Assembly (NCBI GenBank): GCA_030265395.1
Contig: JARFYF010000055.1
Location: forward strand, 14,111,594 to 14,175,480
DNA: 63,887 nucleotides
Source of the DNA: Rhina ancylostomus
Lineage: Eukaryota
Reading direction: 5' to 3'
Shown here: positions 51,101-54,100 of the stretch, one piece after another
How positions within the stretch are numbered: the stretch's first letter is position 1
Layout: each line of letters begins with the position of its first letter
Position numbers: made by a program

Positions 51101-54100
51101 GAGAGGGGCTAGAATTAGTGATGAGGTCGAGGCGGTTGATGGCATAGGGCCGAGGTCAGTGCTTGAGAGTAAGACCAGTAATTGGGTAGTCCAGGAGTCA
51201 CTGATGAATTGACGTTCGCTGAAAATGAACGATGTGATTGGGGTTAAGGATAAATCTGAAGTTAATTCTTTTTTTAAAAAAATGTCCCTCAAAACAAATA
51301 ACGATTCCAGAGCGGAACCAGTATAACCACACGAATTGTCGTTGCATTTGTGTTCCCCTCTATTATTGCGACGAATATAAATTTGGTAGTAAGATGGGGG
51401 CAAAACAGAACAATTATTTGATTTCAAACTCCATTTTCGTTCTATGCTGATCTTATAAACCTTAATGTCCGATAATTTAGCTTCCATAGCCCAGATTTTT
51501 GCTGTACTATGGAAGGCGGTTTTGTAAGATACTTTAAACCAGCGAAAGCACCCTGAGTCTGCCACTTTCTCATTGCTTGCATCTTTTCGCAAAGCATAAC
51601 CAATTATTAACTTACAAGCACTTGCTGTTTGCCGACAGTCTCTGAGTGTTTAAATATATTTATTTTTAAAATCGTGTTTCGTATCAATTTCTGCCTTGTA
51701 TTTAAATTCACTCACTGAAGGAGCAGTCTCGGGACACCCAATTTTTGATTGAATTGCTTCTGTGATTTGGCCATTCCACACACAGTCCGTCCAGGCCATT
51801 AGTTATGTGCACGCGCGCACACACGCGAGCACACACGCGCGCGCGCACACACACACATCCGTTGCGCATTAATTGCTTGTACGTTTATAGATACATTTAG
51901 CAGATCGAAATTCTAAAGTAGCGTGAACCTATGAATGATCTCTCCCCATTTCCACCGTACTTCTTCTGTCCCGGGGCGCACTCAAAGAACCTTCATTCTA
52001 TCCCATGCTAAACAGTTCAATTGGATCCGTTGCGTAAAGATCCAGTTTGCCTTTTTGAGAATCCTGCACTTATTCAGCTCGTAATCTCTGTGAGCTAGCG
52101 ATAACAATTCGAAGCAGTTTATGATCAAGTCATAACTCCTCGTGGTCTGGCAGCACCTAATTCCCGCATCAAATTGTCTCTTCTAGTTCTATGTAGTTAT
52201 CTGGCCATTTAAGTGTAAACTCTCTCTCTCTCTCTCTCTCTGTGAAGCAAGGGGTGGTAGAAATAAGAGATCTGCTTTTAAGACCTAACGAGCGATCAGA
52301 GTTTTGAACTTGCCACTAATTTCCAGTACTTTAAATGTATTTATTTTAAAACTTTAAAGTAATAAATTAACGCAAATACATTTCCCATTCCCACGCTGAT
52401 CCACTATACAGAGCTGTGATGAAGCATATGTGAAGGTTTGTGTAATCAGAGCAGCGGGCGCCCGCCTCGGACTGAGAATTTAACCAACACATTCACTAAA
52501 TGCACTCTGATGGTGCTGTTGACACCTTAGTCTGTGACTGAGTGTGTGTGGGTGAGTGTATGTTTGTGTATGTGCGTGTGTCTACATGTCACTGATGCGC
52601 CCCTGTCTGTCACTGGCCGAGGATAAATCTCCTCTACGGAAACACAAAGCTTTCAGGTCAAATTAACTTTGAAGGACTCAATTGCCGATTATTATCCTGC
52701 TTCACGTTTCCTCTGATATAACCCCCTAACATAAAATCCTCATAAATAAAGAAATGGATTCCAAATTCCTCCGAACTCTATTTTCCCGGACAGTTTTAAT
52801 TTTAAATCCCCGCTGGCCCTAAAAGATAAATTAATGCAGTTTCTCCCGTCAGGAATGTAATTCAAACAGGAATGTAATGTAATCACATTAAGAAGTATGT
52901 CCTTTTAAAATAGTCCCCAAAATTCCCGTCGGGGTCCCCAGATTCCGGCTGGGGTTGGGGTGAGATATCGTCTTCCCGTCCCTGGACCACCCTCCGAATC
53001 CTTGCAAGCAAAGTGCTGCTCACGGACACAAACAGGCAGCGACTAAGACGAGCGCTCTCCAACGCACAGACCCAGCTTGGCCGGTGAACCTCAGGAACCC
53101 GTTGTTTCGCGGCGTGGTGTCAGAAAACATTCTGGTGCAGCTGCGCTTCCCGGTTTAACCGGCATCGGGGTTTGCAAAACACAGACAGTTCACACCAGTT
53201 AATATGATTACAAGTTCACCCAGGGCAGTACACATTTATCTATAGTTTATTTCTCTCCGCACATTCCATGCACCAATACATTTAATGTACATCACACACC
53301 TTCTCTTTGAAACATTTAGCAATATGTTACATTTCATTTACCTACCAGATGACAAGGGTTTATATCTGGAGTAACATATTAAGGTCGTCTTTTCGATTTC
53401 TCCCTTGGCATTCACCGCGTGCCTTAATTGTATGATATTAAATCAAGGTCCGCCGTGAACACGGAGAGTGAGACCGTTTGCCCTTTCCCAATCCCGGATT
53501 CCGCCGGTGCTGTAAACATTGAGACCTTCTTGCTCCGTTTTATCTGCGCGCTTGTTACCTGTATGGCCGGACTCCTCCTTCTCCGCATCCCCGCTGTAAA
53601 TGTCTCTCCTGTTTTGGGCTGCTTTGCAACAATCATGTGCTAAGGTTTCGATGCCTTATATTTTTCGGATGAACCACTTTTCTATTCGGGCGAGAGGAGC
53701 TCTATATTGCTGGTCCTTGTCCTTCGTGCCTCTCTCTTATTAAAGGGAGGGCGTTCAAAGTAGGACAGTGTCCCATNNNNNNNNNNNNNNNNNNNNNNNN
53801 NNNNNNNNNNNNNNNNNNNNNNNNNNNNNNNNNNNNNNNNNNNNNNNNNNNNNNNNNNNNNNNNNNNNNNNNNNNNNNNNNNNNNNNNNNNNNNNNNNNN
53901 NNNNNNNNNNNNNNNNNNNNNNNNNNNNNNNNNNNNNNNNNNNNNNNNNNNNNNNNNNNNNNNNNNNNNNNNNNNNNNNNNNNNNNNNNNNNNNNNNNNN
54001 NNNNNNNNNNNNNGAAATGCACCATTCTCAGTCTGCAACTCTCCAAAAATGCGCCTTTCCCACCCAAATCGATATCGAACCAATGCGACAGGGGTGGTGG

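What the first reader, a model, noticed from the sequence alone, without database searches (positions are those of the whole stretch)
53394..53476. Intact miR-124 gene convergent with YTHDF2: probable ohnologue missing from the human YTHDF2 locus
Seen: a complete miR-124 hairpin on the minus strand about 23 kb past the YTHDF2 poly(A) signal, invisible in the ORF track. Established: human MIR124-3 lies tail to tail beside YTHDF1, MIR124-2 lies in the YTHDF3 neighbourhood, and human YTHDF2 has no adjacent MIR124. Inference: the YTHDF-miR-124 linkage predates the vertebrate genome duplications, and this is the YTHDF2-linked copy retained here and lost in the human lineage. It may correspond to a fourth paralogue already catalogued in other non-mammalian vertebrates, so novelty needs checking.
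Basis: partly seen in the sequence, partly recalled or inferred. Interest (0 to 1): 0.85.

Follow-up and report, generated by a model that had tools for sequence, protein, structure and literature searches.

The report
Shark miR-124 gene beside YTHDF2
An intact copy of the brain microRNA gene miR-124 lies tail to tail with the YTHDF2 gene in a shark genome, a position where humans have no copy, so it is probably an old duplicate that mammals lost and that existing catalogues already allow for.

Summary
Rfam finds one family above its gathering score in the window: mir-124 at 53400-53470 on the minus strand (82 bits against 49, E 1.5e-17, full model). It folds as a hairpin with a lower stem. 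The neighbouring gene is YTHDF2 on the plus strand: 97% identical to white-shark YTHDF2, inside the DF2 clade, and moving it to the DF1/DF3 side is rejected. The two genes are convergent.

The stated distance is not supported. The hairpin lies 42.1 kb past the YTHDF2 stop codon, and the first AATAAA is 95 nt past the stop.

New here: the hairpin sits inside a 13-kb stretch that has kept its CpGs (observed/expected 0.79 against 0.17 in the intergenic DNA). That argues for a regulated, live locus.

The ohnologue reading is partly supported. Papers place the three human MIR124 genes at 8p23.1, 8q12.3 and 20q13.33, and YTHDF2 at 1p35. I could not test other vertebrates, the other copies in this genome, or the joins across N runs.

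Novelty is low. A fourth precursor is listed for Anolis, and MirGeneDB names up to four paralogues by subgenome.

The parts
53400..53470 (-). miR-124 precursor hairpin (Rfam mir-124, full-length match)
   Evidence: 82 bits against gathering 49, E 1.5e-17, model 1-72/72; the plus strand scores only 31.4 bits; hairpin fold, z = -3.98.
53405..53426 (-). 3' arm holding the expected mature miR-124-3p. Its ends are inferred from the family consensus, not from reads.
   Evidence: the alignment agrees with the consensus at every 3'-arm position; the 20-nt core runs 53426 to 53407.
53442..53463 (-). 5' arm (expected 5p strand). It differs from the Rfam consensus at one base, which is unpaired in the consensus structure.
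   Evidence: alignment (model position 17); the arm starts at 53463.
53385..53485 (-). Hairpin plus lower stem: about 10 further base pairs below the miRNA duplex, as expected of a Drosha substrate.
   Evidence: minimum-free-energy structure. A C-N-N-C tetramer lies at 53387-53384, 18 nt past the inferred 3p end (read). That this motif aids processing is recalled, not tested.
47001..60000 (.). CpG-undepleted domain around the hairpin. Inferred to be a germline-unmethylated regulatory domain that holds the pri-miRNA promoter.
   Evidence: 13 of 13 one-kb bins have CpG observed/expected 0.50-1.01. For 47401-58500 the value is 0.79 (383 CpG in 10427 bases), against 0.17 for 11301-36000 and 0.20 for 59801-63887; the window median is 0.22.
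543..569 (+). YTHDF2 coding exon 1 (ATG at 543, GT donor at 570)
744..768 (+). YTHDF2 coding exon 2
   Evidence: AG acceptor at 742-743, GT donor at 769.
4035..4114 (+). YTHDF2 coding exon 3
9675..11264 (+). YTHDF2 terminal coding exon with the YTH domain; stop TAA at 11262-11264
   Evidence: Pfam YTH, 170 bits; 97% to Carcharodon YTHDF2. DF2 clade. Exon lengths 27+25+80+1590 = 1722 = 574 codons, in frame (arithmetic only; the exons were not joined).
1..1500 (+). CpG island over the YTHDF2 5' end
   Evidence: GC 0.67 and observed/expected 0.90 in the first kb.

Best explanation
This is a working miR-124 gene of a shark. A primary transcript made from the minus strand, starting somewhere in the CpG-rich domain above the hairpin (about 53.5-60 kb), folds into the hairpin at 53400-53470. 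Drosha and Dicer cut it, and the 3' arm gives the canonical miR-124-3p, which represses non-neuronal mRNAs in neurons as in other animals.

The gene lies tail to tail with YTHDF2, 42 kb past its stop codon. This mirrors the MIR124-3/YTHDF1 and MIR124-2/YTHDF3 neighbourhoods of humans. The most economical reading is that a YTHDF-miR-124 pair existed before the two vertebrate genome duplications, and that this is the copy on the YTHDF2 chromosome segment. That copy was kept in cartilaginous fish and is absent in humans. It is probably the same paralogue that catalogues of non-mammalian vertebrates already hold.

Shown: the hairpin, its strand, the identity of YTHDF2, the geometry, and the CpG domain.
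Inferred: expression and processing, the position of the promoter, the age of the linkage, the loss in the mammalian line, and the equivalence with a catalogued paralogue.
For:: full-length mir-124 match at 82 bits, with the 3' arm equal to the consensus. An unconstrained copy would not stay perfect over the time since sharks split from bony vertebrates (inference).
hairpin with a lower stem, z = -3.98.
strand assignment.
13-kb CpG-undepleted domain around the hairpin (0.79 against 0.17).
the neighbour is YTHDF2 (SH-aLRT 100 for the 11-row DF2 clade; placing it with DF1/DF3 rejected, p-AU 0.0017).
(PMC8724533): three human MIR124 loci at 8p23.1, 8q12.3 and 20q13.33.
(PMC6585022): YTHDF2 at 1p35, YTHDF3 at 8q12.3, YTHDF1 at 20q13.33. 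Four-member families such as STMN lie on 1p36, 8q21, 8p21 and 20q13, the same four regions.
(PMC5024517): order HAR1A, MIR124-3, YTHDF1.
(PMC8789304): up to four paralogues of pre-duplication miRNA families in Callorhinchus.
Against: Linkage rests on one marker gene and one assembly. Ten N runs (1150 bases in all) lie between the YTHDF2 stop and the hairpin, and I cannot tell gaps from masked repeats. Another N run begins about 300 nt upstream of the hairpin.
No other species and no other part of this genome could be examined, so orthology to a fourth paralogue is not shown.
No expression data.
The loop lacks the G that the family consensus has at one position. I did not test whether that matters for processing.
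The seven-base match to the miR-124 seed is not enriched in the window (7 found, 9.0 expected). No plus-strand match lies in the 4.8 kb after the YTHDF2 stop, so there is no sign that the neighbours regulate each other.
Confidence: 0.7

Rival explanations
1. The hairpin is the orthologue of human MIR124-1, -2 or -3, or a later local duplicate of one of them, that came to lie beside YTHDF2 through a rearrangement or duplication in the cartilaginous-fish lineage. The linkage would then say nothing about the state before the genome duplications.
For: No cross-species or genome-wide test was possible. The hairpin sequence cannot tell paralogues apart, because its 3' arm equals the family consensus.
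Against: The same gene pair recurs in humans with YTHDF1 and in the same chromosome band as YTHDF3. A chance third association with the remaining YTHDF paralogue would be a coincidence. The 13-kb CpG-undepleted domain looks like an established locus rather than a recent insert, though this is weak evidence.
Confidence: 0.15
2. Assembly artefact: a contig carrying a miR-124 locus from elsewhere was scaffolded next to the YTHDF2 contig across one of the N runs.
For: Ten N runs lie between the two genes. Runs of exactly 10 or 100 bases are typical placeholders for gaps of unknown size.
Against: The operators state that N runs may also be deliberate masks. Some runs show continuity: an ORF stays open across the 12-base run at 45153-45164. 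The 322-base run at 42819-43140 has the same CT-rich simple repeat on both sides. The 100-base runs at 3414 and 58580 are flanked by near-identical short strings, as at overlapping contig ends. Seven of the ten runs between the genes could not be judged.
Confidence: 0.08
3. A silent or decaying copy: the hairpin is present but is no longer transcribed or processed.
For: No expression data. The loop differs from the consensus at a few positions.
Against: The 3' arm is perfect, the only 5'-arm change is at an unpaired position, and pairing and the lower stem are kept. The surrounding domain has kept its CpGs.
Confidence: 0.04

Closest known systems
Human MIR124-3 beside YTHDF1 (20q13.33)
   Same: A miR-124 gene directly next to a YTHDF-family gene: positional list HAR1A, MIR124-3, YTHDF1, BIRC7 in PMC5024517. 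That the human pair is tail to tail is recalled, from no call.
   Different: The partner here is YTHDF2, not YTHDF1. The spacing is 42 kb from stop codon to hairpin. I did not measure the human spacing.
Human MIR124-2 and YTHDF3 (both 8q12.3)
   Same: Same chromosome band for a MIR124 gene and a YTHDF gene (PMC8724533; PMC6585022).
   Different: Only band-level co-location was seen in print. Order, distance and orientation were not checked. A search for papers naming MIR124-2, YTHDF3, BHLHE22 and 8q12.3 together (at least 3 of the 4 terms) found none.
Fourth mir-124 precursor of non-mammalian vertebrates (for example aca-mir-124b of Anolis)
   Same: A mir-124 locus beyond the three that mammals have. 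Anolis lists aca-mir-124a-1, -2, -3 and aca-mir-124b, and the last has the highest brain count in that table (PMC4858913, Table 2).
   Different: The genomic position of aca-mir-124b was not given in the passages I read, so equivalence with the YTHDF2-linked copy is a guess.
MirGeneDB paralogue scheme P1-P4 for miRNA families older than the vertebrate genome duplications
   Same: The names encode the four subgenomes, and Callorhinchus shows up to four paralogues (PMC8789304, Methods and Results passages). A YTHDF2-linked Mir-124 would simply take one of these labels.
   Different: I could not see which label. The main text does not mention Mir-124 (listing).

Membership tests
mir-124 microRNA precursor family (Rfam RF00239) | Covariance-model score at or above the curated gathering score over the whole model | tested here: met
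   82 bits against 49, model 1-72 of 72, E 1.5e-17.
mir-124 microRNA precursor family (Rfam RF00239) | Stable hairpin with the mature sequence in the 3' arm and the family's seed intact | tested here: met
   -33.2 kcal/mol, z = -3.98; the 3' arm agrees with the consensus at every position.
mir-124 microRNA precursor family (Rfam RF00239) | Expressed and processed: small-RNA reads from both arms with the expected overhangs | not testable with these tools
YTHDF2 orthologue group | YTH domain present | tested here: met
   PF04146 at 170 bits, profile 2-134 of 135; solved YTH domains of DF1, DF2 and DF3 all match, with E-values from 6e-117 to 3e-96, so the domain alone does not name the paralogue.
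YTHDF2 orthologue group | Falls inside the DF2 clade, apart from DF1 and DF3 | tested here: met
   29-row tree, DF2 clade of 11 rows at SH-aLRT 100, sister to Carcharodon DF2 at 98; holding it with DF1/DF3 costs 20.7 log-likelihood units, p-AU 0.0017; the first row named other than DF2 is rank 34.
Fourth ohnologue of miR-124 from the two vertebrate genome duplications | Lies in the chromosome segment orthologous to the human region that lacks a MIR124 gene | tested here: inconclusive
   Met for one marker only: YTHDF2 with human positions. No second flanking gene lies in the window. Of the 102 ORFs of 90 aa or more, I tested 12 hand-picked ORFs and one 59-aa piece of another. Twelve of these 13 have no Pfam match and one looks like part of a retroelement.
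Fourth ohnologue of miR-124 from the two vertebrate genome duplications | Three further miR-124 loci in the same genome, in the other three paralogous segments | not testable with these tools
   Only this window of the genome is available.
Fourth ohnologue of miR-124 from the two vertebrate genome duplications | Orthologous copies beside ythdf2 in other vertebrate lineages | not testable with these tools
   No vertebrate DNA collection was on hand. Searches found no paper linking miR-124 with YTHDF2 by position.

The most novel reading that the evidence does not exclude
The convergent YTHDF-miR-124 pair is an ancient unit that predates the vertebrate genome duplications. It has been held together in at least three of the four daughter segments for over 400 million years because the two genes share a regulatory landscape, for instance neural enhancers in the CpG-rich domains at 36-40 kb and 47-60 kb. 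Mammals broke the unit only on the YTHDF2 segment. In that case loss of the miR-124 copy could have changed how YTHDF2 is regulated in the mammalian line.
Probability: 0.2. Interest if true: 0.5.

Novelty: new member of a known kind. Interest (0 to 1): 0.25.

Why it matters
miR-124 is the most abundant neuronal microRNA, and its copy number differs between vertebrate groups. Placing a copy on the YTHDF2 segment fills the empty slot in a four-way paralogy set. It would show complementary losses in humans: no YTHDF on 8p, no MIR124 on 1p. It also gives a simple synteny marker for naming miR-124 paralogues. This is tidy book-keeping for work on miRNA and genome duplication, not a surprise. That field already expects up to four copies in cartilaginous fish and has names ready for them.

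Tried and rejected
1. Naming the YTHDF paralogue from the YTH domain alone. Solved DF1, DF2 and DF3 domains all match about equally well, so I used named full-length relatives and a tree instead.

2. A second gene to anchor synteny. Of the 102 ORFs of 90 aa or more, I tested 12 hand-picked ORFs and one 59-aa piece of another against Pfam. Twelve of these 13 had no match. One (44667-45152, minus) matched ALKBH8_N and looks like part of a retroelement. No receptor-like or bHLH-like ORF was seen in the list. The other ORFs were not scanned.

3. Other RNA genes near the hairpin. The permissive Rfam scan of 44000-63887 gave only sub-threshold hits. The mir-297 and mir-3149 hits at 51800-51858 fall on a 12-base tandem repeat. 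The hits at 62476-62560 fall on a dispersed palindromic repeat. No tRNA was found.

4. Cross-regulation of the neighbours. The miR-124 seed match is not enriched (7 found against 9.02 expected; 85 of 100 shuffles gave at least 7). No plus-strand match lies in the 4.8 kb after the YTHDF2 stop.

5. A fourth YTHDF in cartilaginous fish. The Callorhinchus protein V9KEH9 sat unresolved in the first tree, but it fits with DF1 (p-AU 0.53). No evidence for a fourth gene.

6. Literature.
- ('Mir-124-P4', anywhere): 0 papers.
- (miR-124, YTHDF2, synteny): 0 papers.
- (MIR124-2, YTHDF3, BHLHE22, 8q12.3; at least 3 of 4): 0 papers.
- (mir124, ythdf2, ohnolog; at least 2 of 3): 52 papers, 15 listed, none about gene position.
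- (Mir-124-P1, P2, P3): 3 papers, 2 listed, neither on evolution by title and abstract; I did not open them.
- One search returned only m6A and cancer papers.
- One search was badly set (one term sufficed) and returned nothing useful.
- led to the Anolis table.
- Passages on mir-124 in PMC8321539, bioRxiv 10.64898/2025.12.23.696236, PMC13566215 and PMC1388199 said nothing about a YTHDF2-linked copy.

Full report
THE HAIRPIN. Rfam reports exactly one family above its gathering score in the 63887-base window. It is mir-124 (RF00239) at 53400-53470 on the minus strand: 82 bits against a threshold of 49, E 1.5e-17, covering model positions 1-72 of 72. The opposite strand of the same bases scores 31.4 bits, below threshold, so the gene is on the minus strand. 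In the printed alignment the 3' arm, which gives the mature miR-124-3p, agrees with the family consensus at every position. The 5' arm differs at one position that is unpaired in the consensus structure. The loop differs at a few positions and is two bases shorter. A 101-nt stretch folds into the expected hairpin at -33.2 kcal/mol, z = -3.98, and 1 of 200 shuffles folds as well. About ten further base pairs form a lower stem below the miRNA duplex.

THE NEIGHBOUR. The large open frame at 9609-11264 (plus) carries a YTH domain (Pfam, 170 bits). Solved YTH domains of DF1, DF2 and DF3 all match about equally well, so the domain does not name the paralogue. I sent only this single exon to the protein search. 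The best hit is YTHDF2 of Carcharodon carcharias at 97% identity, then Callorhinchus YTHDF2 at 89%. The first row named anything other than DF2 is at rank 34. DF3 rows run 62-68% and DF1 rows 66-69%. I built a tree from 29 rows: the window exon plus 28 species-named proteins chosen from the 120 listed. The other 92 were left out, including all eight unnamed rows. The tree puts the exon inside an 11-row DF2 clade (SH-aLRT 100), next to the white-shark protein (98). Forcing it to the DF1/DF3 side costs 20.7 log-likelihood units (p-AU 0.0017).

I located the small exons with tblastn of two named proteins and by reading splice sites. Coding exons are 543-569, 744-768, 4035-4114 and 9675-11264, which sum to 1722 bases, or 574 codons, in frame. 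The joined coding sequence was neither built nor searched. The window is from a shark-like fish, not from a human.

GEOMETRY. The distance is not as stated. From the stop codon (11262-11264) to the hairpin is 42.1 kb, and AATAAA hexamers lie 95, 369 and 422 nt past the stop. Without transcripts the true end is open, but about 40 kb is the better estimate. Ten of the window's 16 N runs, 1150 bases in all, lie between the two genes. Some show continuity: an ORF stays open across one, and another has the same simple repeat on both sides. Seven cannot be judged.

THE LOCUS AROUND THE HAIRPIN. This is the one thing I add. The window is strongly depleted of CpG (median observed/expected 0.22 in 500-base windows). 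All 24 one-kb bins from 12 to 36 kb are at or below 0.38. From 47 to 60 kb, all 13 one-kb bins lie between 0.50 and 1.01. For 47401-58500 the value is 0.79, against 0.17 for 11301-36000 and 0.20 for 59801-63887. The hairpin sits near the middle of this domain. In genomes that methylate most CpGs, a long stretch that keeps its CpGs has usually stayed unmethylated in the germ line, as at promoters and around developmental regulator genes. That is established knowledge applied here, not something I tested. I therefore read this as a live, regulated locus, with the pri-miRNA promoter probably between 53.5 and 60 kb. A smaller domain of the same kind lies at 36-40 kb (0.45-0.69), with no ORF of known family.

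MECHANISM. Transcription from the minus strand, Drosha cutting at the base of the stem, Dicer removing the loop, and loading of the 3' arm as canonical miR-124-3p. This is the textbook pathway. Here it is inferred from the intact structure and the perfect mature arm. A C-N-N-C tetramer lies 18 nt past the inferred 3p end. That such a motif aids Drosha processing is recalled from the literature, not tested. I found no sign that miR-124 and YTHDF2 regulate each other: the seed match occurs 7 times against 9.0 expected, and no plus-strand match lies in the 4.8 kb after the YTHDF2 stop.

THE OHNOLOGUE ARGUMENT. From papers, passages only:
- Human MIR124-1, -2 and -3 lie at 8p23.1, 8q12.3 and 20q13.33 (PMC8724533).
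- YTHDF2, YTHDF3 and YTHDF1 lie at 1p35, 8q12.3 and 20q13.33 and are treated as part of a paralogy set. Four-member families such as STMN sit on 1p36, 8q21, 8p21 and 20q13 (PMC6585022).
- A positional gene list for 20q13.33 reads HAR1A, MIR124-3, YTHDF1, BIRC7 (PMC5024517).
So the four segments would be 1p, 8q, 8p and 20q. Humans keep YTHDF on three of them (not 8p) and MIR124 on three (not 1p). A miR-124 beside YTHDF2 in a shark is just what the missing 1p-type copy should look like. This is a sound inference, but it rests on one marker gene in one assembly.

WHAT COULD NOT BE CHECKED. No vertebrate genome collection was available. So I did not test whether other species have miR-124 beside ythdf2, whether this genome has three more copies, or whether the flanks resemble another paralogue. 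Supplementary file 3 of PMC8789304 and file 5 of PMC8321539 probably hold the paralogue tables that would settle the naming.

NOVELTY. A fourth mir-124 precursor is already listed for Anolis: aca-mir-124a-1, -2, -3 and aca-mir-124b, the last with the highest brain count in that table (PMC4858913, Table 2). Peterson and colleagues state that Callorhinchus has up to four paralogues of old miRNA families, and that MirGeneDB 2.1 labels P1 to P4 by subgenome (PMC8789304). Their main text does not mention Mir-124. No paper in the searched library links miR-124 and YTHDF2 by position. The explicit remark on synteny may therefore be unpublished, but the gene is very likely already catalogued. I file it as a new member of a known kind, of modest interest.

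Noticed in passing
window 36001-40000: A second CpG-undepleted domain (observed/expected 0.45-0.69, GC about 0.5 at 38-40 kb) lies between YTHDF2 and miR-124. None of the 35 ORFs of 50 aa or more overlapping 37.5-40.3 kb looks like a gene, and the longest (38333-38986) has no Pfam match. It could be a promoter of a non-coding transcript or an enhancer block.
   Followed up: partly
window 33616-33676, 36035-36086, 39445-39507, 40942-41023, 41098-41167, 50391-50435, 50529-50600, 59346-59390, 59432-59503, 61386-61511, 62519-62588: A dispersed short repeat occurs in both orientations, often as two inverted arms 40-80 nt apart, like a small palindromic mobile element. 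It explains the weak two-strand Rfam hit at 62476-62560. Copies lie inside the CpG-rich domain around miR-124.
   Followed up: partly
window 40144-41560 and 44667-45329, minus strand: Retroelement-like ORF fragments. One matches Pfam ALKBH8_N (E 2.1e-11), and its frame stays open across a 12-base N run. Inverted repeats flank the region at 44164-44296 and 45997-46127.
   Followed up: partly
window 51810-51842: A 12-base CG-rich tandem repeat gives sub-threshold Rfam hits to mir-297 and mir-3149. This is a low-complexity artefact, not a miRNA.
   Followed up: yes
window 62195-62397, with weaker copies at 63033-63080 and 63717-63764: A 60-base tandem repeat of about 3.3 copies, with diverged copies further on.
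   Followed up: no
protein P0022 (Callorhinchus milii V9KEH9): This chimaera YTHDF protein was unresolved between DF1 and DF3 in the quick tree. A tree holding it with DF1 is as good or better (p-AU 0.53). It is probably the DF1 orthologue, not a fourth YTHDF.
   Followed up: yes
window 3414-3513 and 58580-58679: Two 100-base N runs are flanked on both sides by near-identical short strings, as if the contig ends overlap. These look like closable gaps rather than masked sequence. They were not filled.
   Followed up: no
window 23566-23722 and 27703-27859: Two 157-nt direct copies, 96% identical and 4.1 kb apart, in the intergenic DNA downstream of YTHDF2. Origin unknown.
   Followed up: no
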